A stretch of DNA of 64,000 bases from positions 17,768 through 81,767 of IMG/VR virus record IMGVR_UViG_3300033145_001320; one strand, given 5' to 3'. Origin of the DNA: a virus. The position numbers and the translations under genes were made by a program. Under the pieces are notes generated by a model that was not told where the DNA came from, made no database searches, and was given only the letters and a program-made list of their open reading frames with translations. Shown here in pieces: positions 393-41,100 of this stretch (its first letter is position 1; each line of letters opens with the position of its first letter).

Positions 393-417
393 GGTCTCAT
401 TGTTCTCCTGTTATATT

Positions 418-446
418 AAAATAGGGGGGTCTGAATCGACCCCCCT
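418..446 (-). terminator. Intrinsic terminator after Ubl gene
   Basis: AGGGGGGTC-GATTCA-GACCCCCCT hairpin followed by ATTTT on the minus strand. Confidence 0.75.
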
Positions 447-470
447 CTAACACGTTAAGCGTTAATATAG

Positions 471-935: not shown

Positions 936-954
936 TTTTAAATCTCCTTCGATT

Positions 955-8219: not shown

Positions 8220-8231
8220 TCAATATACTCC

Positions 8232-8612: not shown

Positions 8613-8625
8613 TCAGAAAAACCTC

Positions 8626-26741: not shown

Positions 26742-28007
26742 TTATAAAGAACCTTCGCCAGCCTGCACAACTGGATCATAGAAATTTTTCTTATATGACT
26801 TTGAACTCTTCAACAATACCATGTGAATTTTTGTCATATACATAAATGCTGGCGATGACCTATCAAAAGAATCAATCTGCGAAATAAATAACGCCGCAGT
26901 ATCAATTGGCATAATCAATAGAAAATCAAGCACGTTTTTCAATTTCTTATCATCATATTTAGGCATTGTTGTTGTCATATATGTGCAAAACCCAACCATC
27001 AATTCACTCAATTTTGAGTTATCATTGTCTTTCAACAATTTATTAATTTCAGGTTTAACAGCGCGGAAATTATGAAATACATCTTTTGGGTTAATGTCTT
27101 TCTTATCCCTTGCAAATTCAATGAATAATCGAGTCATGTGGGTATTTAAAAGACCTGATGCCTTGACTTCGATTTCAGCAAAGTCAATTGTTTTTCTTCG
27201 CATTTCCATTTTCCACAGAATATCTGAAAGTTTTTCATAACTTGCAGGGTTGGCATAAACTGATCCCAACTTTTGAGATTGAAAATCATATAGATATTCA
27301 GGATGAGTTTGAATAAACTCAACAATGTATGGATGAAAATCATGTTCAATTGCATAGTTCAAAAAGTCTACTGCACTAACTTCTGTATAAACATGAAGCT
27401 GCCGTCTAAGTCCTGCGGCATCCTCAAGGTTATCCATAGAATACTCAGAATCATCAGGGTTGTCAATTGATATAACAAACCATCCTTTTGGAAAGGGATA
27501 CCGATGAACTGAGTATTCATCTTGGATTTGCCACAATAACTGTTGTAATTGATGGTCTCCACGTGAAAATTCATCAATAACAAATATTCCATATGTATCT
27601 TCATATTTCGGAACGAAGTCCGAATATAACATTTTGAATGAAAATTGTTCATCCCCTTCAACTTCAACTGGGAATGGAATAATAAAATCGTCCCTTGAAA
27701 GAACAGGGGACTTAACCATAATACAACCGAAATCTTTTATATTGTCCGGATTCTTTTTGTTATGGCTACCAAACATTTCTTCCTGTAATTCATTTGCGAT
27801 TTGGTAGCAGATTTGAGTTTTACCAACTCCCGCTGGTCCGATGATGTGGTAACATTGTCTGACAACATCTCGCCCCAAATTCCATGTGGCGACTGTGTCC
27901 ATGATATCATTTTTGATTAAGCTTTTAATTTTATCAATTGATAAAACAGAGATATTTAAACGTTCGTGATATTTTAATTCAGCATCTTTTGTATTTTCAT
28001 CAGCCAT
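26742..28007 (-). CDS. MoxR-like AAA+ ATPase
   Basis: GPAGVGKT, VIDEFSR, LRRQ; paired with the vWA gene. Confidence 0.85.
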   Translation of the reverse strand: MADENTKDAELKYHERLNISVLSIDKIKSLIKNDIMDTVATWNLGRDVVRQCYHIIGPAGVGKTQICYQIANELQEEMFGSHNKKNPDNIKDFGCIMVKSPVLSRDDFIIPFPVEVEGDEQFSFKMLYSDFVPKYEDTYGIFVIDEFSRGDHQLQQLLWQIQDEYSVHRYPFPKGWFVISIDNPDDSEYSMDNLEDAAGLRRQLHVYTEVSAVDFLNYAIEHDFHPYIVEFIQTHPEYLYDFQSQKLGSVYANPASYEKLSDILWKMEMRRKTIDFAEIEVKASGLLNTHMTRLFIEFARDKKDINPKDVFHNFRAVKPEINKLLKDNDNSKLSELMVGFCTYMTTTMPKYDDKKLKNVLDFLLIMPIDTAALFISQIDSFDRSSPAFMYMTKIHMVLLKSSKSYKKNFYDPVVQAGEGSL

Positions 28008-28043
28008 TATTTGTAACTCCTTATCGGAATAAATTATTTATGG

Positions 28044-29018
28044 TTAAAATTCGATATCATCAAAGCTGAATGTTTTCTTTTCTTCAGCTGCTGGTGTTGC
28101 TGCTTGGGTTTCTGTTTGACCTGCATCTCCTGATGAAACTTGTGGTTCAGCTTCAGATGAAACAGGTTCTCCAATTTCCATAATCCCTTCTGGTCTGCTT
28201 CCATAACCGGTAGACGCTGCTTGCTTACTGTTTGCCCAGTTGAACTTACTTACGAATTGCTCGAGAGTATCCTTAGACAGCTTCAATATTTTCATGACAG
28301 CTTCTTTTGGAATTTCTGTTCCCTTGGTCAATTCGAATACATTAACATCATTTCCAAATGATGATCGTGCTGTTGATTTTGTCAACCTGGTAACAAAGCG
28401 TTTGTTGTTTACAATAGATTTTTCAAATTGTTTACTTTGATCAGTAACCGGTTCAAATATTGGATCTAAATCCTCATTGTAACGATCATTCAGATATTCA
28501 GAAACATTTGAATACTTCATTCCTTTACCACGGATAAATACAAAGATTGGTTTCTTTGCATCTGTTAATATAGGACTTCCATATGCATCACAGTAAATGC
28601 CTGCAACTAAAATTTGAGCACGACATTCACTACAGAAATCATTTGCTGCTCTTTCTGCTGATGTTAATGGGCAAGCACGATTACTTCCATCTGGTAAAGT
28701 TGATGTTCCGTACCACGGTGCAGAACCATCTTTATAAGAAAAACATTTAATGTTATCACGACCTTGTTCATTTTTGATTTTTGCTAAAATGTCCTTGGTA
28801 TGGGTAATCACTAAATTCACTTCATCCAAATTGTATTCAACACCACGAACCTGAAACTTGTCTTCAGCTTCTTCGATATTGATATGGTTCTTTCGAGTCT
28901 TTCCAGAAATATAAACACTATGGAAAAACTCATCTTCCGGAGCAGTAGCTTCTCCGCCTCCACCTTGAAACCCTGTTCCTGATAAATCTTGATAATCTTC
29001 AAAAGACTGTTGCGACAT
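28044..29018 (-). CDS. Putative single-stranded DNA-binding protein
   Basis: Low-complexity linker and acidic/aromatic C-terminal tail FSFDDIEF; internal Cys cluster. Confidence 0.45.
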   Translation of the reverse strand: MSQQSFEDYQDLSGTGFQGGGGEATAPEDEFFHSVYISGKTRKNHINIEEAEDKFQVRGVEYNLDEVNLVITHTKDILAKIKNEQGRDNIKCFSYKDGSAPWYGTSTLPDGSNRACPLTSAERAANDFCSECRAQILVAGIYCDAYGSPILTDAKKPIFVFIRGKGMKYSNVSEYLNDRYNEDLDPIFEPVTDQSKQFEKSIVNNKRFVTRLTKSTARSSFGNDVNVFELTKGTEIPKEAVMKILKLSKDTLEQFVSKFNWANSKQAASTGYGSRPEGIMEIGEPVSSEAEPQVSSGDAGQTETQAATPAAEEKKTFSFDDIEF

Positions 29019-29046
29019 AAATTGTCCCTCCTTCTTATTTTTCTGG

Positions 29047-29628
29047 TTACTTATTTGAGATTAAGCACCAGTTTTGACCATTTCGATCTTCGGGTATTGT
29101 TATAAGCGAAAACTCATTGCTAAACCAACACCTCAAATTCTTATCTAATAAATCTGACGAAATAAATTCGTGCACCTTGTCATAAGGCGGTAAACTTGTT
29201 AACTCTGGATCTTCAATTGTTATCGGATTGATCTTTCTTGTTTTTGAATCAGTAATCTCTCCGGTAATCAATTTTGGATGTGGACAATATACGATAACCA
29301 ATCTCTTGCCAACCATTCTGTATATCTCATTTCGGTATAGATAAACATTGGTATCTAAATCATATGCCACATTGTTTGCATTAAGGACTCGATCAATTGA
29401 TGTATGCTGTCTGCATAAGACTCCATCAGATTTCTTTTCTTCACAAATCTTGCAGTCTGAATGATCTACTGTATATTTAACTCGAAGTTCAAATGATTCA
29501 TCTGCAGCTTTCGAGAAGTATGACAGAATCCTTCTTTTGTTCAATAGGAATTTTACTATTGTAATTGGGTAAACTGATGCCCCCAATTTCTCAATAAATT
29601 TTTCCACCGAAACTTGTTTCATTAACAT
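29047..29628 (-). CDS. Hypothetical protein with CxxC..CxxH zinc motif
   Basis: CKIC...LCRQH; GGAG RBS. Confidence 0.65.
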   Translation of the reverse strand: MLMKQVSVEKFIEKLGASVYPITIVKFLLNKRRILSYFSKAADESFELRVKYTVDHSDCKICEEKKSDGVLCRQHTSIDRVLNANNVAYDLDTNVYLYRNEIYRMVGKRLVIVYCPHPKLITGEITDSKTRKINPITIEDPELTSLPPYDKVHEFISSDLLDKNLRCWFSNEFSLITIPEDRNGQNWCLISNK

Positions 29629-29677
29629 AACTCCTTCACATTTGGTTTTAGAACAAAAAACCTTTTAATTTTATAGG

Positions 29678-29747
29678 CACATGTGGCTGTCGACTAATAA
29701 TATTATTCAATAATTCGAATAACAGTATTGCCAACAGCCACTATGTG
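29678..29747 (-). ncRNA. 70-nt long imperfect hairpin downstream of the vWA/ARPP operon
   Basis: CACAT-A-GTGGCTGTTGGC...GTCGACAGCCAC-ATGTG; G-U pairs form only on the minus strand. Confidence 0.5.
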
Positions 29748-29758
29748 ACAGGACGGTA

Positions 29759-29929
29759 CTATTCATTCATATCATATTCTCCATACTTATACCTTAAAGC
29801 TTTTGGAACACTTATACCACAAATAACTGCAATCTTAATTAATACAGCTGGAGTAGTATGTCGTAAAAAATCTTCGATCCTACGCCTCAGCTTTCTGGTT
29901 TGTTTTTCAAGAAGATCAGATTCAGTCAC
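29759..29929 (-). CDS. Small basic protein, 56 aa (not in ORF track)
   Basis: AAGGAG RBS, GTG start; VTESDLLEKQTRKLRRRIEDFLRH...EYDMNE*. Confidence 0.6.
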   Translation of the reverse strand: MTESDLLEKQTRKLRRRIEDFLRHTTPAVLIKIAVICGISVPKALRYKYGEYDMNE

Positions 29930-29939
29930 ATTATACTCC

Positions 29940-30908
29940 TTATAATACTAATGATAAATAAACTGGAGTATTGTTTTGCTGAATCAAATCTCCGCCACCG
30001 CCAGATGTTGTTTCTAACATAGTTGTCCTGAGTGAGTCATCAGTACTCATTATTCCTTGAGCTTTAATATCAATTGACTCCAATATTGGAAGAATCTCTG
30101 ATCTTAAATGCTGACCAAAATCTTCTAACGTTTTCTTGACAACCTCTGCTGACGCACCTTTAGGAATCTCAGGTAATATCAATGCAGTTTCCTGAAGTTT
30201 TCCAAGCATTTTTAATCGGAGCATTTCAGCTCCATAACAACCACGAAGCAGAAGCTTCCAATAAGCTTCCCAATGTTCACTTGAGGGCATTATTTCAATA
30301 CCGACAGGAACTCCAGAAAACATAATGATGGCACCTATTTGCCCGTCAACAGGTTCAAATTCTGCTGCAAACTGTTCAAGAGCATCTTTGATTTCTGGTG
30401 TATCATAGAAATACCTAAGATGAGCAGCGTTTCTTTTTACTGAAAGAGGCAATCCACTCAACCATGTTTTGATTGATCCCCAAAGTTTGCTGTAACTATT
30501 CGCTTGTCGTAACGATGGATTTACTAATGCTTTTCGCAGGGCAATTGGTAGAATATCTTCTTCGTTTTTATCACCACGAAGATATCCTCCTTGCTCTTGT
30601 TCAATACAACATGCAGTATCAAAACTACCACTTGCATTTGCCTGAATAACTCCAGAACCTGCCATTGCATGATCCTGACCTGCTTTTCCTCGTACCATCA
30701 TATTGGATGGAACAATTGCTGGCATTCCTATATCATCATTATCAAATACCATTGTTCCATAATCCGAGGTAGTTCTGAACTTCAAATGTTCAGGTCCTGC
30801 TATTTCCCCTCTGCTATCTCCAAGTATCGGAACGACGGTCATCTCATTGACTGATTGTACGTTGCCAATTTCTATGCCAGTGAACTTCAACTTATTAAAA
30901 ATGTTCAT
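29940..30908 (-). CDS. ARPP-like (DUF6569/ARPP family) protein
   Basis: QSVNEMTVVPIL, GQDHAM, CCIEQEQGG, FEPVDGQIGAII..G..VGIEIMPS...W..LL..CY pattern, family recalled from memory. Confidence 0.55.
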   Translation of the reverse strand: MNIFNKLKFTGIEIGNVQSVNEMTVVPILGDSRGEIAGPEHLKFRTTSDYGTMVFDNDDIGMPAIVPSNMMVRGKAGQDHAMAGSGVIQANASGSFDTACCIEQEQGGYLRGDKNEEDILPIALRKALVNPSLRQANSYSKLWGSIKTWLSGLPLSVKRNAAHLRYFYDTPEIKDALEQFAAEFEPVDGQIGAIIMFSGVPVGIEIMPSSEHWEAYWKLLLRGCYGAEMLRLKMLGKLQETALILPEIPKGASAEVVKKTLEDFGQHLRSEILPILESIDIKAQGIMSTDDSLRTTMLETTSGGGGDLIQQNNTPVYLSLVL

Positions 30909-30922
30909 AATTTAATGACCTC

Positions 30923-32443
30923 CTATCCGAGTAATGTTTGATATTTTTGAACTAACAATGACTTGACCATATCACGATTTTGTAACATTCGATTAAAAAT
31001 AATCTCAGTTTCCAAAAATCTATAATCGGTCAATGGCATTGCATCAACCCCTTCTACCAAACTACGAGTTGTACCGCTTTTTGCATCTGCTGAAAATACT
31101 GGATTTAAATGAAGAAGGTTAAATTTCGCACCTTCACTTTTAAAGTGTTTATAGGTATGTTCAAACATACCTTTTATTTCATTTTCATATCCGTCAGACA
31201 CGACCACGATATTTTCAACCCCTGTTTGAATAGCATCAACAAGTCCGCTCCACAAATTAGTTGCACCATTTGGAACCAACACATTGACTTTGCTTTTGGT
31301 TGGAGTTTCTACAACTTTACCGCCTATGTAAAAGACATCCTTGATATTGTCCAATGCCGATACTAAACATAGTGATGTGATAAATGGATGCAATGGACGC
31401 TGTTCACTTCCTATCATTGATTTTGATGCATCAATGATAACAACACATTCTCCTATGGTGAGACGTTTCTGTCTACCGCTTACTACAACGATAGCTTCTT
31501 CTATCTCATCCATATTATCAGATTCATCGTTTAGAAGTTTATAGTAGAAAGATTTCCATAGATCATACAAGTCCTGTTTCTGATAATCGACTTTGAATGA
31601 TGTTGCTCCACTTTTCTTGGCTGCGCTTTCCAGCTGAATCTTTTCACGATCAGTCATCTTTGCAGTTGAATATATTTCTGAAATATCAATATCAACTCCA
31701 TAAGTATTACGAAATCCCATAACTGTTCGCTGAGGCATACCCTTCATATATTTTCTAAATGAAGTAGTAAGACCTGATTGCGCTGCTTGTCTTAAAGACC
31801 AATAGTTATCAATCTTTGGAAAATATGTTGAGAGTCCTTCACGACGAGGTTCTTTATCAAAGATGTGACAAAATACAGGATATGATTCCATATTGTATCT
31901 TCCAATCCACTTTGAGAAAAGTTTCATGTCACCATTCAATATTTTGAATAAGTCCTGTTTACCTAATGCATGTCGTACAAGGGTTTTCAATTTTCCTTTA
32001 TAGTTTACTGCCAGTCCATCAAGATCTCTGGAATCACGGTCGAAGATAAAACTCAATATAAGTTTTCTTGTTCTTGCATTATTAACTCTATTAAATCCTT
32101 CTGCACCTGTTAGCATTAAAAGATTTTTTAATGCTCTTGGGATACGCTCTTTTGACAGATTGTAAAGAATGACTTTCGATTCATAATCAAAGGAAAGACC
32201 ATCAACAGCAGGAAGATTACTTGAAGGTACAGGATTACCAAGTAACATATGTGTCATTGCACCTTTCGAAAAACCTGTTCCTTTAAGAAGAGTTATTAAA
32301 CAGAATAGCGTTCTATCATAATTGAATAAATCGCTCCACATTTGAACTACACGGCTAAATTGTTCGTCTGCATCCTCATAATATGCGCCTTTTGGTACGT
32401 ATTGAAGAATCCCTGAGTCAATTTTGGTTTTGCTTAAATCCAT
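30923..32443 (-). CDS. Helical domain plus vWA protein, divergent TROVE/Ro60-like architecture
   Basis: C-terminal MIDAS vWA (VIIDASKSM, GATNL, VVSDGYEN, HLNPVF) after a ~330-aa basic, helix-rich region; 506 aa; adjacent ncRNA array. Confidence 0.6.
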   Translation of the reverse strand: MDLSKTKIDSGILQYVPKGAYYEDADEQFSRVVQMWSDLFNYDRTLFCLITLLKGTGFSKGAMTHMLLGNPVPSSNLPAVDGLSFDYESKVILYNLSKERIPRALKNLLMLTGAEGFNRVNNARTRKLILSFIFDRDSRDLDGLAVNYKGKLKTLVRHALGKQDLFKILNGDMKLFSKWIGRYNMESYPVFCHIFDKEPRREGLSTYFPKIDNYWSLRQAAQSGLTTSFRKYMKGMPQRTVMGFRNTYGVDIDISEIYSTAKMTDREKIQLESAAKKSGATSFKVDYQKQDLYDLWKSFYYKLLNDESDNMDEIEEAIVVVSGRQKRLTIGECVVIIDASKSMIGSEQRPLHPFITSLCLVSALDNIKDVFYIGGKVVETPTKSKVNVLVPNGATNLWSGLVDAIQTGVENIVVVSDGYENEIKGMFEHTYKHFKSEGAKFNLLHLNPVFSADAKSGTTRSLVEGVDAMPLTDYRFLETEIIFNRMLQNRDMVKSLLVQKYQTLLG

Positions 32444-32532
32444 TATTCGTTAGTCCTCCCTTATTAAATTTCATTCCAACGTAAGTAAAACATATCCAAT
32501 TTTTTAGTGTGAAAAATAAAAATCAATAATGC

Positions 32533-32625
32533 ACCTCAAATAATTGGGTGGACTAGTTATTAGTATAATTACAATAGTTATCTATTATAGTTACCTAACA
32601 CTAATCCACCCCAAGCTAAGGAGGT
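32533..32625 (-). ncRNA. Long imperfect hairpin between the RNA array and the vWA gene
   Basis: ACCTC..TTGGGGTGGATTAG..GTTAG...CTAATAACTAGTCCACCCAA..GAGGT. Confidence 0.5.
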
Positions 32626-32626
32626 T

Positions 32627-32751
32627 TCTTGAAAGTGTAAATGTATTATGTTTGGGTGAAAAACAGGTATCGAAACCTGCTACCTATTGCTTTAAATGCA
32701 ATTGCTCTACCAAATGAGCTATTTTCAGAAAATACAAAAAGTCTTTCAAGA
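32627..32751 (-). ncRNA. Array unit D: Y-RNA-like stem enclosing a tRNA-like domain (anticodon UUA)
   Basis: TCTTGAAAG/CTTTCAAGA terminal stem, AGACTTTTTGTATTTTCTGA motif. Cloverleaf TGAAAA-TA-GCTC-ATTTGGTA-GAGC-A-ATTGC-ATTTAAA-GCAAT-AGGTA-GCAGG-TTTCGATA-CCTGT-TTTTCA-C-CCA (about 32653-32727). Confidence 0.75.
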
Positions 32752-32760
32752 GAAAAATAG

Positions 32761-32820
32761 ATGGAGGAATATATGCAGTTGTTGATTTTAAAGTAATCTG
32801 AATCTGCATAAAGTCTCCAT
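32761..32820 (-). ncRNA. Array unit C: minimal unit without tRNA domain
   Basis: ATGGAG/CTCCAT stem, AGACTTTATGCAGATTCAGA motif, TATGCAG/CTGCATA inner stem. Confidence 0.7.
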
Positions 32821-32836
32821 GAAATAAACATAGTGA

Positions 32837-32908
32837 AATAGAAGCTGTAAATGTAATTGTAGTTATTTTCTCCAAATGAAAAACAGAAATTACATTAAGT
32901 CTTCTATT
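32837..32908 (-). ncRNA. Array unit B
   Basis: AATAGAAG/CTTCTATT stem, AGACTTAATGTAATTTCTGT motif, AATGTAATT/AATTACATT inner stem. Confidence 0.7.
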
Positions 32909-32920
32909 AGAAATTTTGAA

Positions 32921-33029
32921 GCCCGAAGTGGAAATTGTATTATGTTGAGGGACTTGAACCCTATACGCTTGTTTATCATACAAGTGCTGAACCAATCAGC
33001 TATCAGAAAATACAAAAAGTCTTCTGGGC
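32921..33029 (-). ncRNA. Array unit A: Y-RNA-like stem enclosing a tRNA-like domain (anticodon GAU, truncated acceptor stem)
   Basis: GCCC(A)GAAG/CTTCGGGC stem, AGACTTTTTGTATTTTCTGA motif; D arm GCTG/CAGC, anticodon arm CTTGT-ATGATAA-ACAAG, T arm AGGG-TTCAAGT-CCCT. Confidence 0.75.
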
Positions 33030-33092
33030 ATAAATGATAATAAAAAATGATATTGGAGTTGAATCCAAAATAGTTTTTGCCGATAATCATTC

Positions 33093-33114
33093 ATTCAGTT
33101 ATTAATATATATAG
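33093..33114 (-). promoter_or_regulatory. Phage promoter-like motif copy 1 (CTATATATATTAATWANTGAAT)
   Basis: 22-bp motif recurring at 43297 and 47051; always intergenic, upstream of a minus-strand unit. Confidence 0.7.
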
Positions 33115-33135
33115 ACAATAATTTTTAAAATGAAT

Positions 33136-33396
33136 TTATGTGGCGTCTACGAGGACAGGTTTTTTTGCATCACCCAAATCAAATATTAACTTTCTGCCTG
33201 GGTAATTGTCAGCAGTAGATGACATAATTTGTTTTACAGAATGAGGCATAGAATTATTTGTGTAATATAATTGGACCCCGCCTTTAAAATTAAATACAAT
33301 TCCATCATGAGTCTCTGAAACATCTACTAACTCACTTCTATCGACACTTAAATTTAAAGATTTATGTTTGATTATTATTTGTGTGTTGTCTGCCAT
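33136..33396 (-). CDS. Hypothetical protein
   Basis: 86-aa ORF with AAGGAG RBS. Confidence 0.7.
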   Translation of the reverse strand: MADNTQIIIKHKSLNLSVDRSELVDVSETHDGIVFNFKGGVQLYYTNNSMPHSVKQIMSSTADNYPGRKLIFDLGDAKKPVLVDAT

Positions 33397-33402
33397 TCTT
33401 TT

Positions 33403-34020
33403 TTACTCCTTTCGTATTAATGTTATTAAAATAGAACTTCTCAAATTCTTTGATTTTTTACAAAACCATTTGATAATGTTGTCTTTATTATATGTTCTTA
33501 AAAAATCAGCAATCATCTCAGAGTAATAATGCAGATCTAATTGTTCCTCAATCTCTCGAATTATTTTGATATCATTATGTTCGCAGAACTTTTCAACTTG
33601 GAACGAGTTAGTATCTGGATTTAAAAGACTCCATATATCAACTATAAATTTTTCATGATCATATTCGACAAATTCTATAAATTTATACAATTCATTTATA
33701 TCATCTTGATTATAGAATGGATCAAGATTTATTGAAAATTCAAAATCATATTTTTCAGGCATTTTCTGAACAATTGAAAATGCAAGTACCCTTTGATATG
33801 CAAGAGGAAACTTTTTGATCTTTCCAATAACAGATTGATAGTTTGTCATAAATTCTGGATGACCCATGTAATCCGTAACATTCACATAATAGAATTGCAT
33901 AAGTCCTGAGTCGATTACAGAATTTCCATAATATTCATCTATCTCTGTATCGTCAATTTCCATTTCTGGTTCTTCAATTGTGTTTCCACATAATACTTTT
34001 AATTCTTCTGAGTCATACAT
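33403..34020 (-). CDS. Hypothetical protein
   Basis: 205-aa acidic ORF directly after RNAP beta. Confidence 0.75.
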   Translation of the reverse strand: MYDSEELKVLCGNTIEEPEMEIDDTEIDEYYGNSVIDSGLMQFYYVNVTDYMGHPEFMTNYQSVIGKIKKFPLAYQRVLAFSIVQKMPEKYDFEFSINLDPFYNQDDINELYKFIEFVEYDHEKFIVDIWSLLNPDTNSFQVEKFCEHNDIKIIREIEEQLDLHYYSEMIADFLRTYNKDNIIKWFCKKSKNLRSSILITLIRKE

Positions 34021-34023
34021 TCT

Positions 34024-37000
34024 TTAATCCCTCGTCAACATTAATGATATAAAATATGAGTTTAATAAATCTCTTGCAGGTGATGTTTTTGGTTCACGAT
34101 ATTCGGCACCACCAGTTTTAATAATTTCTGCTAACATTTCTTCTTTTGTTATATAATCATCTGATAGTGGACCCATGAACTCTGCAAGCACGCTAGGACA
34201 GTTATAAGAAATGAATGAATAGGTATCAAGCTCTCCTAACCTCTGTCCTCCTTCACGCCTTTTACCAGCAGTAGGTTGTGCTGTTTTTCCTGTCATTGGT
34301 CCTGTTGAACGTCCGTATATTTTTGCATCGCCCATATGCTCCAACTTTGCTATATACATATAACCTACTGGAACAGCATGAGTAGTAGATGTATTATATT
34401 CAGGTAGTTTTAATTTATATGTTGATTTCAATCCAATAGATTTTAATGCATTTTCAATATCTTTATGACTTGGTGCTTTAAAAGGTGGAATAATAATTGG
34501 ATAGAATCCACTTTTCTTAATTTCAGCTATGAATTTAGTATATGCTGTTGCACTCAAACTTGATATATTCTTACCGAGTCTTTCTGTTGTTTCTTTATTT
34601 TTTGACTTATCTAAATGACCATATACTTTTTTAATTAAAGCAACAACTTGTGTTTTTGTTTTCAGAGTTGGAATGATTTTTCCAAGTTCTTTTGCTATTA
34701 GTCCACAATACATTTCATACAATTGCCCGATATTCATTCGACCTAATAACCCAAGAGGATTCAAAAGAATTTCAACACGGTCACCATTTGGCATTCTTGG
34801 CATCAATTCATCTTTTTCAATTATTGAAATGATACCCTTGTTTCCATAACGGTTGCAGAGTTTATCACTTACTTTAATATCTAACTCTTGTTCAATTTTA
34901 AATCGAATATAAACTCCCTTTATTGTTTCACCTTTATATGTAAATTTATCTTTTGGAAGTTTTGGATTTCGTTTGTTTGTCCTTGCAATGAGATCTTTTA
35001 ACATTGGAAATTTAGAATCACCAACATTAGAAAATATATCAATATCAACAATTCGACCACCCTGACTCTTTTTAATAAATTGACCTGAATGCATATCAGT
35101 AGTTTCATCTTCTTCAAAGCCAATAATATCTTCAACGTCTCCAAATGTCTTTCTTAATATTGGTTTTCCTTTTGCAATTGAATCGCCGACCTCTGCAATA
35201 TAAAGAAGTCTGTCATTTTCAGCAACTATAACTTCTTCTTCAATTCCATGAAGGGATGTTAGTTTTCCTTCTTTAGCAACACTCTCACTTATAACAGCAC
35301 CATCCTCAAAGTTATATCCTTTGTATGGCATTAAGGCAGCTAGTAATGGTCTACCTAATGCAATTGCACCATTAGACATACAAGCACCTTCTGCAATAAC
35401 TTGGTTTTCTTTGACTCTTTCATTCTTTTCAACAACAGGATTGAATACACTCAAGGTATTCTTTCCTGAACCAGAACGAAGATGTACAGGTGATATATCG
35501 ACCGTCTTAGACCCCTTAGAACCGCATTGAATCTTAATTGCATCCTTGGATATACTTAGTATCTTACCGTTGCATGGGGACCGCTTTACGAAGTTGTCAG
35601 ACAGAACGTCCGTAAGGATTGACTCGTATCCTGACTGTACAATAGGCGCTTGAGGATCCTTTAATGGAACCATCTGCTTTGCTTGATTTGCAAGCATTAT
35701 TATTCTAGCACCATCTACATTTTCAAGGAATGGCACCATTGATGTAGTCGTTGACAACATTCCTGATTTTTCGGTATTGGTTATATTTTTACTTGAGAAC
35801 ATGCCACGTGAAGATGAGATTAAAGCATCAATTGTTAGCTGTTGAGCAATACCAATATTATCACTTTCAGGAGTATCTAATGGATCAATATTTCCAAAAT
35901 AGCTTGGGTGAATATTACGAGCTATTGTTTGAATTGCTCTCTTATCAGGTATGCCGCCTACCTTTTGGCCAACAGGAGAAACTCGAGTCATAGTTGACAT
36001 CTCTTCAATTGGATTTGCGTATTCCATATCAACAACTAATTCTGTCATTAAGAAATCGCTTAATACTTTTGTTGATGGAATTTCAAATTGTGCTTGTTCA
36101 TTTCCTGATAATACTTGTTCTTTATACACTGTATATGCAGCAAGAATTTGTTTCTGTGTTAAATGAACCAATACTTCTGAATTTCTAATACGTTGATTTG
36201 ATAAATCATTACGTTCAATGACATATCCTTGTACAACTTTATCAGCCATATAGTTCATAATCAAATCAAGACTAGTTGGAAACTGTTGACTTTTCAATAC
36301 TTGCTTTGCAACAGGATCAACAATATTTTGTAAGTTTGAACTGATTAAGAATGTTGAGTTCATTCTTCCAGTTAGACTAATAATTAAATCTTCAAAGTAT
36401 TCTTTTGATGGAAATTCTTTTTCAATTGTATATTGTTCTGGTTTCCCATGTATAAAACCTACAACCATTTGCTCTTGAAGTTCAGTGTTTATATTTTTAA
36501 ATACACAATACTGCCCTTCTTTGATTTTAGCAAAATACTTTTCACCTGTTGGTTTTGTATCAACAATTTCATATTTTATTTTGTATTGGTTACATGTTTT
36601 TTCAAAACCAAAACTAAATGATAATAAGAAAAACAAAGGCATTTTATATGACATAAATGCTTCTAGATATTTAACACGTCTTAAACTTTTAACATAGATT
36701 CTAAATACAGAATATGAACTTTCGAATCGTGAATGTCCTGGTTTCGGAAACGTTATCGGATTCTGTACAATTTGATTAACAAGACATTTTTGTTTTCCAT
36801 TTAATCTAAAGACTCCTGTACTTGGATTAATACGTGGAAGTTCTAGTTTGATATTATGTACATTGCCAAATTGATCTTTCAATGTAACGGTTGCAATGTT
36901 AATATCTGATTTTAATATTTCTCCAGCTCGTCCTGGTTTATGAGAAATAGAAAATTTTTCAAACTTCAATGGAAGATCTTTTGATTCCAATACCTTAAAT

Positions 37001-38112
37001 GAACTAATCAAATCTTTTCTTAGATTTGTTTCAAAGTCTAACTGTCTTTTCTTAAATATATGTTTTGGAGCTTTTCCGTCAACCATCTTTACAGGATCGT
37101 ATGTTTTGATGGTTTCGTTTATTGCTAAACTTTCTGCTTTTGTAGGAGGAATTATATCCCCCGCTAATGTTGAACTGATTGCAGTTAAAGCTTTTGTTTT
37201 CCCTTTAGCTGGAATTTTCTTTGCAATAGCTGTAGCTCTGTTTATATCTCCACTAGTTCCATATAAAATAGAAGATGTTGCAATGGTTTTAATTTCATCT
37301 GCATTTGCATCACCAGAGACAATTTTTGTAACCTCATCAGGATCTTTTTGTAAGTATGTTTGGATTGCTCCTTTTATGCTAGCTACATTTTTTGAGTCAA
37401 TATTTTTATCGAGTACTTTCATTATAATTTTTGTAGCTTTATTTGTTTCTGTTTCTTGTTCTGTATCAGTCAGGACACCTTTTAAATTTCTTACATAATG
37501 AAGTACTCTTTGAAATGTAAATTCTCCATCCTTTACAAGAAGTCTATAATTTGATTTTCCATTAGTTACTGTATTCAATATCATATCATCAAATAGAAAA
37601 CTTCCATCTTTCATATCACGAACAATTGGAAATATCTTTCTATTGACAAATGTATTAACTTCTCTATTTAAATCTATAGAATATAAAAGAATTTTTTGAT
37701 AGTTGTCTGGGAACTGTGCAGTTGCTGTCTTTAAAATATTTTTTAATAGAAACCCAGCTCTTTGTCTGTAGTTGGTTGGTTTATGCATTACATCAATAGC
37801 ATTTGTGTATTGTGATAAATCAAGGATAACGTTTTTTCCTGGTGGGACTTTTTGGTTGGCTGCATATGGTATTAATTTTAAAGCACGATATGCTCTCACA
37901 AGATCAGGAGTCATTCTTGTTCTTGGAACTGTTGTCAATGGAACTGATACATTCTTAAAATCAATCTTCCTCAAATTCATTTTCGCATAATCTTCAATAA
38001 AATTTGAGTTCTCAGGAAAATATATTAAAAGAAACGGTTCTTTTATATCCTGTGGAAATCTAACTCCATCAACAATATGTGTATATTGTCTCCAATTTTT
38101 AAATTGAATCAT
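34024..38112 (-). CDS. Phage multisubunit RNA polymerase beta-like subunit with N-terminal extension
   Basis: DPLDTPESDNIG, ANQAKQMVPL, GYNFEDG, DKLCNRYGNKG, LNPLG..GRMNIGQL, KLEHM, GGQRLGELD. Confidence 0.95.
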   Translation of the reverse strand: MIQFKNWRQYTHIVDGVRFPQDIKEPFLLIYFPENSNFIEDYAKMNLRKIDFKNVSVPLTTVPRTRMTPDLVRAYRALKLIPYAANQKVPPGKNVILDLSQYTNAIDVMHKPTNYRQRAGFLLKNILKTATAQFPDNYQKILLYSIDLNREVNTFVNRKIFPIVRDMKDGSFLFDDMILNTVTNGKSNYRLLVKDGEFTFQRVLHYVRNLKGVLTDTEQETETNKATKIIMKVLDKNIDSKNVASIKGAIQTYLQKDPDEVTKIVSGDANADEIKTIATSSILYGTSGDINRATAIAKKIPAKGKTKALTAISSTLAGDIIPPTKAESLAINETIKTYDPVKMVDGKAPKHIFKKRQLDFETNLRKDLISSFKVLESKDLPLKFEKFSISHKPGRAGEILKSDINIATVTLKDQFGNVHNIKLELPRINPSTGVFRLNGKQKCLVNQIVQNPITFPKPGHSRFESSYSVFRIYVKSLRRVKYLEAFMSYKMPLFFLLSFSFGFEKTCNQYKIKYEIVDTKPTGEKYFAKIKEGQYCVFKNINTELQEQMVVGFIHGKPEQYTIEKEFPSKEYFEDLIISLTGRMNSTFLISSNLQNIVDPVAKQVLKSQQFPTSLDLIMNYMADKVVQGYVIERNDLSNQRIRNSEVLVHLTQKQILAAYTVYKEQVLSGNEQAQFEIPSTKVLSDFLMTELVVDMEYANPIEEMSTMTRVSPVGQKVGGIPDKRAIQTIARNIHPSYFGNIDPLDTPESDNIGIAQQLTIDALISSSRGMFSSKNITNTEKSGMLSTTTSMVPFLENVDGARIIMLANQAKQMVPLKDPQAPIVQSGYESILTDVLSDNFVKRSPCNGKILSISKDAIKIQCGSKGSKTVDISPVHLRSGSGKNTLSVFNPVVEKNERVKENQVIAEGACMSNGAIALGRPLLAALMPYKGYNFEDGAVISESVAKEGKLTSLHGIEEEVIVAENDRLLYIAEVGDSIAKGKPILRKTFGDVEDIIGFEEDETTDMHSGQFIKKSQGGRIVDIDIFSNVGDSKFPMLKDLIARTNKRNPKLPKDKFTYKGETIKGVYIRFKIEQELDIKVSDKLCNRYGNKGIISIIEKDELMPRMPNGDRVEILLNPLGLLGRMNIGQLYEMYCGLIAKELGKIIPTLKTKTQVVALIKKVYGHLDKSKNKETTERLGKNISSLSATAYTKFIAEIKKSGFYPIIIPPFKAPSHKDIENALKSIGLKSTYKLKLPEYNTSTTHAVPVGYMYIAKLEHMGDAKIYGRSTGPMTGKTAQPTAGKRREGGQRLGELDTYSFISYNCPSVLAEFMGPLSDDYITKEEMLAEIIKTGGAEYREPKTSPARDLLNSYFISLMLTRD

Positions 38113-38114
38113 TC

Positions 38115-41100
38115 TTATCTCCTACGTTTTTTAGTTTCAACCAATGTTCCTGTAAGGACTTTTTCAAGAATACTTGGGTCACCACCATCATCTGTAATGA
38201 GTCCAGTTTTTATAGCTTCGTTTACATTTTCGAATGCCAGTCCCTGGATAAAACTTGTTTTGAATACAATTTGTTTTATGTTAATCATTGTGGGATCCCA
38301 TTTCTGTCCAAGTCTTGCTGGAATGCTTTGATTCTTTTTATCTCTCAATGCTTGTGATAATAAGACTTCAAGGTGTACAGAATCCATATTTCTCAATGTT
38401 CCATAAACAGCAAACAGTTTTAAGAATAAATGATTTGCATCTTTATAGATTTCTCGACCACCTAATAAACGTCTTACATATTGAATTTGTGCTTTTGTAT
38501 CGTCAGTCTGTATTGGTATTTCTAATACAGTACTATTTGCTTCATATGATATCTTTGTAAATTCTTTTCCTACTTTTTCATCATTATATGTTTTTAGAAT
38601 GGCTGGATAATCTAATATAATATTAAAAATAGAATCATCATATTCAACCTTACATACTAATGCTTTAACAATAATTTCATTATCAATTTCATTATAAACT
38701 AAATCATCAGGTAAAGGATAATCTTCTTTATTTAAAGTCAGTACCATAGGACGTTTTGTAAATAATTCAGTATTATTCTGACCCAAATTTTTCATGATAT
38801 TTTCTTTTGTGGTTAATGGATCGTTTTGAATAATGTCATATCTGATATCTCTATCTTTAATCTTTACTGCTCCACCTGTATGGAATGATTTCATGATTGT
38901 TTGTGTACCTGCTTCTCCAACAAGCTGTGCTGCTAAAACTCCAACGTAAGGACTTTTGTGTCGTTTTAATAAATCACCATAACAAGTATGACATAATTTA
39001 GTAGACTCACATAATATAGGACTTCTTAAATTAACAACATCTCCAACTTTTGTTTTACCTGGATCAAATCTTTCAACAGAATTTCCATTTAGGATATATC
39101 TACCTGTGAATATTCCTTTCATTTCTTTTGTCATTCTGAAACTCAAATGACGTTTTGTTTTGCAATCTTTTAAACTCCTATCAATTTCAACAGTATTTAA
39201 AACATATGCAAGCTGGCGTGACATATAACCTGTATCAGCAGTATTTAAAACACGATCAATTATACCTTTTCTTGAACCAGATGCTGCTGTAAAATATTCT
39301 TTATTTGTTAGACCATCTGCAAACGAACCTTTAATTGCAGGAAGCACTTTTCCAGTTGGATCAGCAATCAATCCTTTTGCAACTAAAATTTGCATTGGTT
39401 GAGTCCATCCTTTTCCAGATCCAGATTGGACCAGATCATATAGTCCTGTACCCTTTAAATGTTCAACTAATAATTTTTCCATCTCTTCTAACAATACGGC
39501 AGCTTCTTCTGTTGTTGCACCATCTAACTTTTTCTTTAATTGTAGAATTGATGTTGGTAATTGAATATCATCTAATGTTATACTTGGTGAAGAAATTGTT
39601 GCAAATTTAAAACCTATTGTTTTCAATGCTGAGAATGTATTGATTGCTTGTTCACGCCCATACATTTCAAGAATTACAGGAATAAGACCATTTACAATTT
39701 TGCTATTAACTTCTTGATCAATAAAAGGATACGATAGTGGGAATGTACTATTGAATATTGCTTTTCCCATAGTTGTAGTTTTCCCACGATATTTAACAGG
39801 GATATATGGATCAGATGCATTTTGTAAATCTGTATTAGTAACAGAAATGGGTGGTGCTGTTCTTTTGACATTTTTTGTGATTGTATATAAACCAACACAC
39901 ATTTCTTTTGACAACTCAAATGTTACGGCAGTGGCAGAGTCTCCACTTTCTCCATTCATCATTTTACTTATAACTTCAGCTTGTGCTTCAGTTGTTATAG
40001 GATGATAAATTGCCATTGTGTCTCCATCAAAATCAGCATTGAATCCGCCTACTTGGAGAGTACATAATCGTACTGTATTTCCATCAACTAAAATTGGTTT
40101 GAATCCACGAACAGATTCAGGTCGAAGTGCAGGATCACGTTTTGCTAATACACTACGATTCATCATTGCTACTTCTGCCGCATCCCATATAATTTTATAT
40201 AACTCTGGTGGAAGAACATCTCCACTTCCTACAGCTTTAAATACAGATTTAATACTATCAATTGATAATTCTAATTCTGTATGCTTTGTTACAGCTGCTG
40301 CTAATTTTGCTTGATCTACTTGACCAGAATAAAACAACCGATGAATAATAAAAGGTTCAAACAAACTTATTGCTAACCTTAACGGGATACCAATCTCATT
40401 TACTTTTAAGTCTGGACCAGGCGTAATAACAGCGCGACCAGAAAAGTCTGTACGTTTGGCTAATAGACTTGAACGAATCAACCCATTCTTCTTTTGAATT
40501 AATTTACGAATGAATCCATCATGGGCAATTACTGCCTTTTGAAGTTCATAATTTAAAAGATCGAATAAAGGTCCTGATTTAGATGCACTCTTAATTTGAT
40601 ATGCTCGTCTAATTAAAGAAATGTAATGATCATTTATTGGATCGTATATCCACATTCCTTTCTCATCCTGATATGCATCACGTTGTTCGGGTGGAATGAC
40701 AGGAACTGTATCAATAAATAGATTGTTTTCTTTTATAGATTGTTTTATCTTTTTAATGAATTTATCTCTAGTTTCTGTCCCGCCTCTAAATTTTATCTTT
40801 GGTAGAATCTTAATAAACTCTGAAATGCCTGTTACTCCATCAGGGTCAGTAATCAATAATCCTTGTGAATTAACTTTATATGTTTCCTCAGTTGATAGGA
40901 ATTTTTCAATCTTTCTATCTAGCTGAAGTAATAACATATATGCTGATGGATGAATAACTAATGCATTTAGTTTAATATATGAAAATGTCTTTTTACGATC
41001 TGTAGACTCTTCTGGACCAAAAATAATTTCTGAAAACAACCCCTCAGGATGCCATTCGCCTGGCTTTGAGAAAAACTCTGTTGTAGTAACAGGAGTAAGT

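What the first reader, a model, noticed from the sequence alone, without database searches (positions are those of the whole stretch)
29678..33114. Candidate new Ro60/Y-RNA-like system: tandem structured ncRNA array, TROVE-like vWA protein, ARPP-like protein and small ORF behind one promoter motif
Seen: the 670-bp gap upstream of the vWA gene holds four back-to-back minus-strand units (A 32921-33029, B 32837-32908, C 32761-32820, D 32627-32751). Each is closed by its own 6-9-bp terminal stem of different sequence. All share a gap-free 20-nt 5' motif (A and D AGACTTTTTGTATTTTCTGA; B AGACTTAATGTAATTTCTGT; C AGACTTTATGCAGATTCAGA). Each has a pyrimidine-rich internal loop and an inner helix with compensatory changes (TGTATT/AATACA, TGTAATT/AATTACA, TGCAG/CTGCA). 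The apical parts vary: two are tRNA-like and two are short. Known: bacterial Ro60 (TROVE plus vWA) genes lie beside Y RNAs built from a protein-binding stem and a tRNA-like domain (YrlA). Inference: the conserved stem is the docking site for the 506-aa helical+vWA protein and the apical domains are interchangeable effector or decoy modules. The motif does not match the Y-RNA Ro-binding consensus I recall, so this may be an undescribed RNP family, perhaps countering host anticodon nucleases or other RNA-targeting defences.
Basis: partly seen in the sequence, partly recalled or inferred. Interest (0 to 1): 0.93.

Follow-up and report, generated by a model that had tools for sequence, protein, structure and literature searches.

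The report
Divergent Ro60-like RNP with cassette RNAs
A giant phage carries a row of small structured RNAs, some shaped like tRNAs, in front of a very divergent relative of the Ro60 RNA-binding ring protein and an unknown enzyme, and the same trio recurs in many bacteria next to large tRNA gene clusters, so it looks like an undescribed branch of the Ro60/Y-RNA particle family.

Summary
Four back-to-back minus-strand RNA cassettes (32627-33029) share one plan. Each has a closing stem P1, an ACUU loop, an inner helix P2, a UCWG box and a variable tip. The tip is tRNA-like in A and D and a short hairpin in B and C.

A covariance model finds 57 such cassettes in the window and 12 related phage loci, all upstream of the same gene. 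All 14 modelled pairs covary.

The 506-aa protein has no Pfam or PHROG hit. Its model matches Ro60/TROVE+vWA structures along its length (Z 13-16). ARPP-1 follows it in 13 of 13 phage and 48 of 53 bacterial loci. ARPP-1 is predicted to dock on the vWA MIDAS face (score 0.61, best control 0.00).

Bacterial relatives carry a related RNA motif upstream, often at the end of arrays of 13-24 tRNA genes. Anticodon arms are the fastest-changing part of the RNAs.

The canonical Y-RNA motif and any Rfam Y-RNA match are absent.

Verdict: a real, apparently undescribed deep branch of Ro60/Y-RNA-type particles. RNA binding and function are untested.

The parts
33093..33114 (-). Promoter-like motif CTATATATATTAATAACTGAAT ahead of the RNA array
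   Evidence: Near-identical 22-nt block at two other intergenic sites of the window (about 43300 and 47060, minus strand) and upstream of the array in L010. Promoter function is inferred, not shown.
32921..33029 (-). Cassette A: P1 with a one-base bulge, ACUU loop, P2, then a tRNA-like D arm, anticodon arm and T arm without an acceptor stem
   Evidence: Fold. Rfam tRNA positions 8-63, 31.3 bits. Model R1 28.0 bits with filters off. Orthologue in L010 differs mainly in the anticodon arm.
32837..32908 (-). Cassette B: P1, ACUU, 9-bp P2, short apical hairpin
   Evidence: Fold z -4.1. R1 65.8 bits.
32761..32820 (-). Cassette C: P1, ACUU, 7-bp P2, short apical hairpin; no counterpart aligned in the closest fetched relative L010
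   Evidence: Fold z -4.6. R1 65.4 bits. Opposite a gap in the L010 alignment.
32627..32751 (-). Cassette D: P1, ACUUUU, P2, then a full cloverleaf with anticodon UUA (6 of 7 acceptor pairs, no encoded CCA)
   Evidence: ARAGORN and Rfam, 47.7 bits. R1 31.0 bits. The L010 orthologue has a UUG loop, with 4 of 7 loop bases changed.
32546..32611 (-). Near-perfect long hairpin at the place where L010 has a fifth true cassette; a degenerate cassette or a processing/terminator hairpin
   Evidence: MFE -32.5, z -5.45. Aligned to L010 unit 3312-3372. Not matched by R1.
30923..32443 (-). Ro60-like protein (506 aa): helical-repeat ring domain plus C-terminal vWA with an intact MIDAS motif (D338, S340, S342, D417)
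   Evidence: No Pfam or PHROG hit. Model pLDDT 84. Ro60/TROVE structures are top hits over both domains. Invariant MIDAS residues.
29940..30908 (-). ARPP-1 family protein (322 aa), predicted partner of the vWA MIDAS face
   Evidence: Pfam PF20208, 77.3 bits. Always follows the Ro-like gene. Complex prediction 0.61 against 0.00. No fold relative in the PDB.
29759..29929 (-). Small ORF (56 aa, GTG start behind AGGAG), conserved in part of the phage group only
   Evidence: tblastn hits in 8 of 12 distinct phage loci and in no bacterial locus.
29680..29745 (-). Long hairpin after the small ORF, the likely end of the transcription unit
   Evidence: MFE -32.4, z -6.1. Terminator function is inferred.

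Best explanation
The locus encodes a deep-branching relative of the Ro60/Y-RNA ribonucleoprotein. One transcript starts at the promoter-like motif (33093-33114). It carries four cassette RNAs and probably the mRNA for the Ro60-like protein, ARPP-1 and a small ORF.

Each cassette has a constant basal module and a swappable tip. The basal module is the closing stem P1, the ACUU/UAYUA internal loop, helix P2 and a UCWG box. I take it to be the docking site for the ring protein. The tip is either a short hairpin or a tRNA-like cloverleaf in the normal D, anticodon, T order, whose acceptor end runs into P2 and P1.

The protein's vWA MIDAS face holds ARPP-1, an enzyme of unknown chemistry predicted to act on ribose or ADP-ribose groups. 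The tRNA-like tips show anticodon arms that change quickly between relatives. I therefore think the particles work on tRNA-directed events in phage-host conflict. They may act as baits or decoys for enzymes that cut or modify anticodon loops. Alternatively they may be adaptors that bring damaged tRNA ends to ARPP-1.

Shown here: cassette anatomy and covariation, a predicted Ro60-like fold, and strict gene linkage in phages and bacteria. Predicted: the protein-ARPP contact. Inferred: RNA binding, RNA processing and the tRNA-conflict role.
For: RNA.
- R1, built from 11 short cassettes, finds 58 matches at E <= 1 in 172 kb searched on both strands (window plus 13 loci). Of these, 57 are on the gene strand inside the array upstream of the homologous gene, 2-8 per locus. 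One is the antisense of palindromic unit B.
- 94.9% of cells pair. All 14 pairs show double changes. Slid controls pair at 33-52%.

Protein.
- Ro60/TROVE entries are the top structural matches over residues 5-505. Foldseek E is 5e-6 to 7e-4. VIA gives Z 13.3-16.2 with 398-410 residues aligned.
- 7 of the 30 nearest ESM-Atlas clusters are TROVE clusters (a lead only).

Linkage.
- ARPP follows directly in 13 of 13 phage loci and in LR756500.
- ARPP follows in 48 of 53 bacterial loci. The other 5 loci end within 425 nt of the gene.

The RNA motif tracks the protein.
- Phages have ACUU-nn-UGUAAUUUCAG. Bacteria have ACU-N5-GUCAUUACAG.
- The regex gives 61 hits in the 39.7 kb within 800 nt upstream on the gene strand, against 25 in 674.6 kb elsewhere. 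33 of 45 loci have a nearby hit.

Anticodon arms.
- Window and L010 units A and D differ mainly there.
- Among 8 close bacterial RNAs, the loop differs at 0.332 per site against 0.036 elsewhere.

Not ordinary tRNAs.
- Related phages hold about 25-28 good tRNAs 80-100 kb away.
- D's UUA anticodon would read TAA, which ends 42 of 60 long ORFs.

Protein complex.
- ipSAE 0.61 (runs 0.61, 0.66, 0.60); the best of 3 controls scored 0.00.
- In the tool's calibration, 116 of 157 solved complexes and 2 of 215 mismatched pairs reached the mark.
- Runs agree in at least 93% of contacts, and partner pLDDT is at least 87.
- The interface joins MIDAS residues 340-342, 392-394 and 419-426 to ARPP 16-21, 182-188 (including invariant E185) and 243-268.
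- No solved ARPP relative exists from which the model could recall it.
Against: - Sequence methods do not link the protein to TROVE. Pfam gives nothing for the window protein or for 19 distant representatives. A 68-sequence profile finds no Ro60 chain in the PDB. hhalign against a canonical Ro60 aligns only the vWA part, at probability 10.6%. The fold match rests on a predicted model, and TM-scores are moderate (0.44-0.51).
- The published Ro-binding motifs (GGUCCGA in animals, GNCGAAN0-1G in bacteria; PMC4201824) are absent. No Y-RNA family matched in Rfam.
- The tRNA-like domain has a different topology from YrlA.
- No expression, processing or binding data exist.
- The regex was written after I had seen about ten of the same loci. 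Alignment A5 was fitted to the model, which favours pairing.
- 8 of the 14 bacterial RNAs share the same CUU loop, so 'hypervariable' is relative.
- The phage loci are all one phage group, so their synteny alone is weak. The bacterial loci carry the linkage argument.
Confidence: 0.6

Rival explanations
1. The cassettes are binding sites in the 5' leader of the operon, not stand-alone RNAs. The Ro-like protein, or another factor, binds them to control translation or stability of its own mRNA. The tRNA-like tips sense a tRNA-related signal.
For: The array lies directly upstream of the gene on the same strand, with no clear terminator between. Only a long hairpin sits at 32546-32611. One promoter-like motif precedes the whole block.
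Against: - Copy number varies from 2 to 8, and whole cassettes are gained or lost between close relatives.
- In LR756500 three motif copies lie 2.5-3 kb upstream, with other genes in between.
- In L042 the motif copies lie downstream of ARPP.
- Bacterial copies are followed by their own small hairpin.
- Each cassette closes on itself with its own P1, as stand-alone Y RNAs and tRNAs do.
Confidence: 0.12
2. The cassettes are ordinary phage tRNA and small-RNA genes. Their conserved flanks are processing or stabilising signals for host RNases. The Ro-like gene is only a neighbour. Unit D would then be an ochre suppressor tRNA.
For: Unit D scores 47.7 bits as a tRNA with 6 of 7 acceptor pairs. Cassette-embedded tRNA-likes in relatives reach 67 bits (L004). 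Bacterial relatives sit at the ends of true tRNA arrays.
Against: - About half of the cassettes (29 of 57) are too short to hold a tRNA.
- Unit A and several relatives lack an acceptor stem.
- ARAGORN reads A34 anticodons (ATG, ATC, ATA, AAT) in relatives' cassettes. That these are unusual for bacterial tRNAs rests on my own knowledge.
- The phage group keeps about 25-28 better tRNAs elsewhere.
- A TAA suppressor would read through 42 of 60 of the phage's own long ORFs.
- The flank motif follows the Ro-like gene across phyla, while ordinary array tRNAs lack it.
Confidence: 0.12
3. The repeats are remnants of a small mobile element or a recombination hotspot with terminal inverted repeats. They have no RNA function.
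For: Cassette number varies, and the unit ends are inverted repeats.
Against: - P1 sequences differ between units yet stay complementary: 6 of 6 P1 pairs show double changes.
- All 57 phage cassettes lie on the gene strand, upstream of the Ro-like gene. None occurs elsewhere in the 81.8-kb record.
- The internal motif is conserved from phages to several bacterial phyla.
Confidence: 0.03

Closest known systems
Ro60 (Rsr)/Y-RNA particles of bacteria and phages: Salmonella and Mycobacterium YrlA, Deinococcus Yrn1, and Thermus phage phiLo Ro60 with Yrl1/Yrl2 (PMC4201824 section 4 read; PMC12135203 passages read; PDB 1yvp, 2nvo, 9kop, 9l5y)
   Same: - Ring-plus-vWA protein fold (predicted).
- Small RNAs encoded just upstream on the same strand.
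- RNA ends paired in a stem with an internal loop.
- A tRNA-like domain in some RNAs.
- More than one RNA per locus, and presence in large phages.
   Different: - No detectable TROVE sequence signature.
- No GNCGAA/CGAA or GGUCCGA box; the motif here is ACU(U)...GUNAUUNCAG.
- The tRNA-like part keeps its anticodon arm and is joined to the stem through the acceptor end. In YrlA the stem replaces the anticodon arm.
- Arrays of 2-8 cassettes.
- An obligatory ARPP-1 partner gene.
- Bacterial copies sit at tRNA arrays rather than in rtcBA-type operons (the rtcBA context of canonical rsr is from PMC7790460 and PMC9879122, abstracts and listing only).
Rsr-like gene of Listeria phage CKA15 (P100-like) with three very abundant RNAs upstream (PMC12282133, discussion passage read)
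   Same: A phage protein recognisable as Ro-like only by remote methods, with highly transcribed non-coding regions within 2 kb upstream on the same strand.
   Different: No similarity found by tblastn of the window protein or of ARPP against 50,697 phage records; only LR756500 was hit. I did not inspect the CKA15 RNAs, so whether they are related is open.
ARG-centred ADP-ribose systems with ARPP and vWA proteins (Iyer et al. 2022, PMC9503650, passages read)
   Same: An ARPP-1 domain with invariant Cys and Gln residues. A vWA protein in the same neighbourhood.
   Different: In the passages I read, that paper lists ARPP with ARG, rhodanese-phosphatase, HIRAN, WYL and deacetylase partners, and not with a TROVE-like ring or RNA genes. 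Here the vWA is fused to a Ro60-like ring, and RNA cassettes are part of the unit.
tRNA array units of bacteria and phages (PMC4758250 and PMC5966550, listing and abstracts only)
   Same: Dense same-strand runs of 13-24 tRNA genes lie directly upstream of the bacterial relatives. Related giant phages hold about 25-28 tRNAs.
   Different: The window's cassettes are not plain tRNA genes. A link between tRNA arrays and a Ro-like/ARPP pair did not appear in my searches.

Membership tests
Ro60 / TROVE proteins (Pfam PF05731 with PF25045 vWA_Ro60) | Match to the TROVE sequence model | tested here: not met
   No Pfam hit for the window protein or for 19 distant representatives. PF05731 finds nothing in the 81.8-kb record, while its controls ring in Deinococcus and Bacteroides. 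A canonical Ro60 from a Haliangium contig scores 176 bits in the same test.
Ro60 / TROVE proteins (Pfam PF05731 with PF25045 vWA_Ro60) | Helical-repeat ring followed by a vWA domain (fold) | tested here: met
   Predicted model only. Foldseek: all 11 shown rows with E <= 1e-3 are Ro60/TROVE entries. VIA: Z 13.3-16.2, rmsd 4.6-5.3, 398-410 residues aligned over model residues 5-505, against Z <= 11.5 for vWA-only chains.
Ro60 / TROVE proteins (Pfam PF05731 with PF25045 vWA_Ro60) | Sequence-profile homology to canonical Ro60 | tested here: inconclusive
   A profile of 68 sequences finds no Ro60 chain in the PDB. hhalign against one canonical Ro60 aligns only the vWA part (probability 10.6%, E 0.003). 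No profile of canonical Ro60 was built.
Ro60 / TROVE proteins (Pfam PF05731 with PF25045 vWA_Ro60) | MIDAS motif in the vWA domain | tested here: met
   D338, S342 and D417 are invariant and S340 nearly invariant across 68 sequences. All four are invariant in the 39 close ones.
Ro60 / TROVE proteins (Pfam PF05731 with PF25045 vWA_Ro60) | Binds a small non-coding RNA encoded nearby | not testable with these tools
   Only co-location was tested. Cassettes lie upstream in 12 of 13 distinct phage loci and 33 of 45 bacterial loci.
Y RNA / YrlA | Conserved Ro-binding box (GNCGAAN0-1G in bacteria, GGUCCGA in animals; PMC4201824) | tested here: not met
   No GNCGAA between 32369 and 33663, a span that contains the array. 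No Y-RNA family up to E 10 in Rfam 15 over 32400-33200.
Y RNA / YrlA | 5' and 3' ends paired in a stem interrupted by an internal loop or bulge | tested here: met
   Folds. P1 and P2 covary: 14 of 14 pairs.
Y RNA / YrlA | tRNA-like domain with T, acceptor-like and D arms, joined to the Ro stem where the anticodon stem would be | tested here: not met
   Units A and D have D, anticodon and T arms in tRNA order, and the stem continues from the acceptor end. Units B and C have no tRNA-like part.
Y RNA / YrlA | Encoded within about 4 kb of the Ro60 gene on the same strand | tested here: met
tRNA genes | Full cloverleaf with a 7-bp acceptor stem and a usable anticodon | tested here: not met
   Only D is a full match (47.7 bits), with a C-C mismatch at 1-72 and a UUA anticodon. 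A matches positions 8-63 only. B and C do not match. TAA ends 42 of 60 long ORFs.
ARPP-1 (Pfam PF20208) | Match above the curated cut-off, with the conserved Cys and Gln noted by its describers | tested here: met
   77.3 bits against a cut-off of 27. Q18, Q78, C101, Q106 and C224 are invariant in 21 sequences.

The most novel reading that the evidence does not exclude
This is a new class of modular, 'programmable' tRNA-mimic particle. A Ro60-like ring holds a constant RNA handle. The exchangeable tip copies the anticodon arm of whichever tRNA is under attack. The vWA-docked ARPP-1 is the effector that reverses or exploits a ribose-linked modification or cleavage.

Arrays of such cassettes would let giant phages answer several tRNA-targeting immune nucleases at once. 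The same would apply to the bacterial elements that carry tRNA arrays. The reading would also give a first function to the enigmatic vWA/MIDAS domain of Ro60 proteins: effector docking.
Probability: 0.3. Interest if true: 0.9.

Novelty: new variant of a known kind. Interest (0 to 1): 0.8.

Why it matters
Ro60/Y-RNA particles are conserved from bacteria to humans, yet in bacteria their partners and the role of the vWA/MIDAS domain remain unclear (PMC12135203 says so for MIDAS).

This locus defines a large, unannotated sister family. It has 443 proteins at E <= 1e-3 in one search and 347 cluster representatives in another. It spans giant phages and at least Planctomycetota, Myxococcota, Bacteroidota, Actinomycetota and Gammaproteobacteria.

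The family offers three testable handles:
- a new RNA handle motif;
- a fixed enzyme partner predicted to sit on the MIDAS face;
- tRNA-like tips whose anticodon arms change fast.

It also ties a Ro-like system physically to tRNA gene arrays, whose biology is itself poorly understood. Cultured hosts exist for the bacterial version (Stieleria, Novipirellula, Roseiconus and Yinghuangia records), so experiments are feasible.

Tried and rejected
- Rfam at gathering and at E <= 10 returned only tRNA plus chance-level snoRNA and U4atac rows.
- megablast of 29000-34000 against the phage collection found no match.
- tblastn of the protein and of ARPP against phages hit only LR756500.
- A single-protein scan of viral contigs gave 1 locus, so I switched to an alignment.
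- The genome scan with the 68-sequence alignment failed because no stretch was conserved enough. I repeated it with the 25-sequence distant clade.
- phmmer and the profile search against PDB sequences found no Ro60.
- R1 on 40 bacterial loci gave 1 weak hit (E 0.68). The bacterial variant is too different for the phage model, so I used inspection, RNAalifold and a regex instead.
- RNA evidence: no RNA holder was listed by the look-up of sequencing runs.
- ARPP fold: Foldseek gave no row at E <= 1e-3, and VIA-wide gave a best Z of 4.3. This gives no functional lead.
- The sigma-70 promoter and terminator scan was no better than shuffles.
- Papers not held, so not read: Burroughs and Aravind 2016 (NAR) and Sim et al. 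2020 (Annu Rev Microbiol). Either might describe related TROVE-like families. Supplements of PMC9503650, which hold its ARPP neighbourhoods, were not opened.
- An alternative genetic code was considered because of the UUA anticodon. I rejected it because coding density is 0.89 under table 11, with TAA as the main stop.
- A K-turn reading of the UCWG box was considered by eye. I dropped it because there is no GA on the opposite strand.

Full report
CONTEXT

The window is part of an 81.8-kb virus record that CheckV rates 26% complete. All long ORFs lie on the minus strand, GC is about 32%, and coding density is 0.89. PHROG hits include the multisubunit RNA polymerase beta and beta' (34024-41138), topoisomerase II, an SbcC-like protein and ribonucleotide reductase. 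It is therefore a giant phage. Related records reach 223-248 kb.

THE OBSERVATION

Each folds as described and better than shuffles (z -2.8 to -4.6). The 12-nt core AGACTTWWTGYA occurs exactly four times in 64 kb, once per unit.

Rfam and ARAGORN see a full tRNA in D (47.7 bits, anticodon UUA). In A they see a cloverleaf without an acceptor stem (31.3 bits, model positions 8-63). No other RNA family reaches threshold.

A structure-aware parse of the window and related loci refined the plan:
- P1 is 6-13 bp and its sequence is unique to each unit.
- 5' ACUU lies opposite a 3' UAYUA-like 5-mer.
- P2 is about 8-10 bp (nnUGUAAUU / AAUUACAnn).
- A UCWG(A) box follows.
- The tip is variable.

IS THE RNA REAL?

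I fetched 13 loci encoding homologues of the 506-aa protein from viral contigs (39-73% identity). L008 duplicates L007 and was left out of later searches. I also took one distant phage record, LR756500 (26% identity).

I built covariance model R1 from 11 short cassettes. It finds 58 matches at E <= 1 in 172 kb searched on both strands. Of these, 57 lie on the gene strand inside the array upstream of the homologous gene, 2-8 per locus. One is the antisense of the palindromic unit B. LR756500 gave none. With filters off, all four window units are found: B 65.8, C 65.4, D 31.0 and A 28.0 bits.

On the resulting alignment, 94.9% of cells pair. All 14 pairs have double changes, in 203 cells. No shuffle of 500 reaches the observed values on four of the five measures, and one of 500 does on the fifth. 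Sliding the partner by 1-3 columns drops pairing to 33-52%. The alignment was fitted to the model, which favours pairing. The size of the effect, and P1 sequences that differ completely between units, make chance unlikely.

About half of the cassettes are short and half are long enough for a tRNA-like insert (29 against 28). No further copy lies in the rest of the record.

THE PROTEIN

The 506-aa protein has no Pfam or PHROG match. It has a large family:
- 443 proteins at E <= 1e-3 among 8000 scored candidates, and none of the 120 listed carries a Pfam domain.
- 347 cluster representatives at E <= 1e-3, of which 210 are at <= 1e-10.
- None of 19 representatives scanned has TROVE.

An AlphaFold model from a 39-sequence alignment (pLDDT 84, pTM 0.75) matches Ro60/TROVE structures first:
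- All 11 shown Foldseek rows with E <= 1e-3 are Ro60 or TROVE entries. These are Xenopus and human Ro60, Deinococcus Rsr and Thermus phage phiLo Ro60. They align over about 540 columns with TM 0.30-0.51.
- VIA gives Z 13.3-16.2 with 398-410 residues aligned across both domains for ten Ro60/TROVE entries. The next rows are vWA domains alone (Z <= 11.5, up to 134 residues).

The MIDAS residues D338, S340, S342 and D417 are conserved.

Sequence methods do not see the relationship. The profile search of PDB sequences finds no Ro60. hhalign against a canonical Ro60 aligns only the vWA part. The TROVE model finds nothing in the record. The ESM Atlas lists 7 TROVE clusters among the 30 nearest (a lead only).

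I therefore call the protein Ro60-like by predicted fold. It is not a member of Pfam TROVE.

THE PARTNER GENE

The next gene is an ARPP-1 protein (77.3 bits). In the phage group the order is fixed: RNAP beta, g205, g86, array, Ro-like, ARPP, (g56), g193, g324, ATPase. These phages are all relatives, so that synteny says little on its own.

The decisive evidence comes from cellular genomes. A scan with the distant clade of the protein family found 53 loci. They lie in Planctomycetota (several complete chromosomes), Myxococcota, Bacteroidota, Actinomycetota, Gammaproteobacteria and two MAGs labelled archaeal. ARPP lies directly downstream in 48 of the 53. The other five loci end within 425 nt of the gene. 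The remaining neighbours differ from locus to locus. LR756500 also has the pair.

ARPP is known only from one comparative-genomics paper, which predicts an enzyme acting on ribose or ADP-ribose. In the passages I read, that paper lists other partners and no TROVE-like one (PMC9503650, passages read).

The ARPP model is confident (pLDDT 90). It has no relative among solved structures.

A complex prediction supports binding of ARPP to the Ro-like protein:
- The score is 0.61 (runs 0.61, 0.66, 0.60), and the best of three controls scored 0.00.
- In the tool's calibration, 116 of 157 solved complexes and 2 of 215 mismatched pairs reached the mark. These counts hold only roughly, because my own alignments were used.
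- The runs agree in at least 93% of contacts, and partner pLDDT is at least 87.
- The interface joins the MIDAS face (340-342, 392-394, 419-426) to ARPP 16-21, 182-188 (with invariant E185) and 243-268.

This is a model's confidence and not a measurement.

THE BACTERIAL RNAS AND tRNA ARRAYS

In 24 of 40 bacterial loci scanned, ARAGORN finds tRNAs upstream on the gene strand. Eight loci have 13-24 of them within 4 kb (Rfam agrees).

In Pirellulaceae the last 'tRNA' before the gene is embedded in a long stem. RNAalifold on 14 of these gives the following plan:
- a 9-bp P1 with compensatory changes;
- ACUA;
- a GC clamp;
- P2 (GUCAU/AUGAC);
- a 3-bp acceptor remnant;
- D, anticodon and T arms.

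The same plan appears in Myxococcota, Bacteroidota and the MAGs labelled archaeal, with the box ACU-N4-5-GUNAUUNCAG. It is often followed by a second, hairpin-tipped copy. The phage box ACUU-nn-UGUAAUUUCAG is plainly the same motif.

I wrote a regex for it after seeing about ten of these loci. I applied it to the 45 loci that contain the start of the gene; 8 of the 53 lack it and were dropped. It hits 61 times in the 39.7 kb within 800 nt upstream on the gene strand, and 25 times in the other 674.6 kb of both strands. 33 of 45 loci have at least one nearby hit.

So the RNA handle follows the protein across phages and bacteria, and it changes with the protein's clade.

ANTICODON ARMS

Window units A and D align with their L010 orthologues almost base for base except in the anticodon arm. 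In A both stem and loop differ, and the stem changes are compensated. In D, 4 of 7 loop bases differ (UUA against UUG anticodon).

Among 14 Pirellulaceae RNAs the anticodon is CUU (8), AUG (2), UAG (2), UUU, AUU or ACG. Among the 8 closest RNAs the loop differs at 0.332 per site, against 0.036 elsewhere.

Whole cassettes also come and go: unit C has no counterpart aligned in L010, and L010 has two extra units.

NOT ORDINARY tRNA GENES

Two related phage records hold 29 and 26 tRNA-model matches. All but 1 and 2 of them, which are the cassette tRNA-likes, lie in a separate region 80-100 kb from the Ro-like locus and score higher. TAA, the codon D's anticodon would read, ends 42 of 60 long ORFs.

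COMPARISON WITH KNOWN SYSTEMS

The system works like a Ro60/Y-RNA particle in gene layout, protein fold and RNA logic, that is a stem handle plus an effector or tRNA-like tip.

It fails several membership tests for that family:
- no TROVE sequence signature;
- no GNCGAA/CGAA box (the motif is from PMC4201824 and was used again for phage phiLo in PMC12135203);
- a tRNA-like part with the opposite connectivity to YrlA.

It adds three features not reported for Ro60 in what I could read: arrays of cassettes, an obligatory ARPP partner, and placement at tRNA arrays.

One Haliangium contig carries a canonical Ro60, then a 20-tRNA array, then the Ro-like/ARPP pair. The two kinds are therefore distinct and can coexist.

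My literature searches found no description of this family. Two likely relevant papers are not held, and I did not open the supplements of PMC9503650.

MECHANISM AND CONFIDENCE

Well supported: a real, conserved structured-RNA family; a Ro60-like predicted fold; and a three-part unit of RNA, ring protein and ARPP that is conserved across phages and bacteria.

Predicted: ARPP docks on the MIDAS face.

Inferred: the ring binds the handle, the cassettes are cut out as separate RNAs, and the particles act on tRNA-directed attack or damage. No expression data could be found.

I put 0.6 on the overall explanation. Within it, I put about 0.3 on the specific bait, decoy or adaptor role in tRNA conflict.

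Noticed in passing
window 33093-33114, about 43300 and about 47060 (minus strand): A shared 22-nt intergenic motif (CTATATATATTAAT-nn(n)-TGAAT) precedes the RNA array and two other genes. It is conserved upstream of the array in L010. It is probably a promoter of this phage group's own RNA polymerase.
   Followed up: partly
L072/L077 plus L022 (one Haliangium MAG contig): A canonical Ro60 (TROVE 176 bits, vWA_Ro60 227 bits), a 20-tRNA array and the divergent Ro-like/ARPP pair lie in a row on one contig. Both kinds of Ro protein flank the same tRNA array.
   Followed up: partly
L021, L022, L027, L028, L029, L034, L043, L065 (bacterial loci): Dense same-strand arrays of 13-24 tRNA genes within 4 kb upstream of the Ro-like gene. 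In Pirellulaceae a tRNA-Cys(GCA) always precedes the cassette RNA.
   Followed up: partly
L026 (Stieleria chromosome) 56-3321 and 7001-9334: The neighbours of the pair are a DDE transposase, a Band-7/SPFH protein, an endonuclease V-like protein and a HIT-PLD-helicase fusion. This looks like a mobile or conflict island.
   Followed up: no
L015 (LR756500) 640-1360, 1435-2241, 2475-2957: The distant giant phage has three copies of the handle motif, one with an acceptor-less tRNA-like part. They lie 2.5-3 kb upstream of its Ro-like/ARPP pair. An R2K ATP-grasp gene, a tRNA-Leu and a CYTH-domain gene lie in between.
   Followed up: partly
window 26742-29628: Downstream genes g193, g324 (weak double zinc-ribbon hit) and a 421-aa ATPase (phrog_1297) keep fixed positions behind the operon in the phage group. 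They are absent from the bacterial loci. Function unknown.
   Followed up: no
G006 53.8-82.8 kb and G007 156.7-176 kb (related phage records): Each related giant phage carries about 25-28 well-scoring tRNA genes spread over a 20-30-kb region far from the Ro-like locus.
   Followed up: no
L042 6593-7042: In this planctomycete locus the three handle-motif hits lie downstream of ARPP instead of upstream of the Ro-like gene.
   Followed up: no
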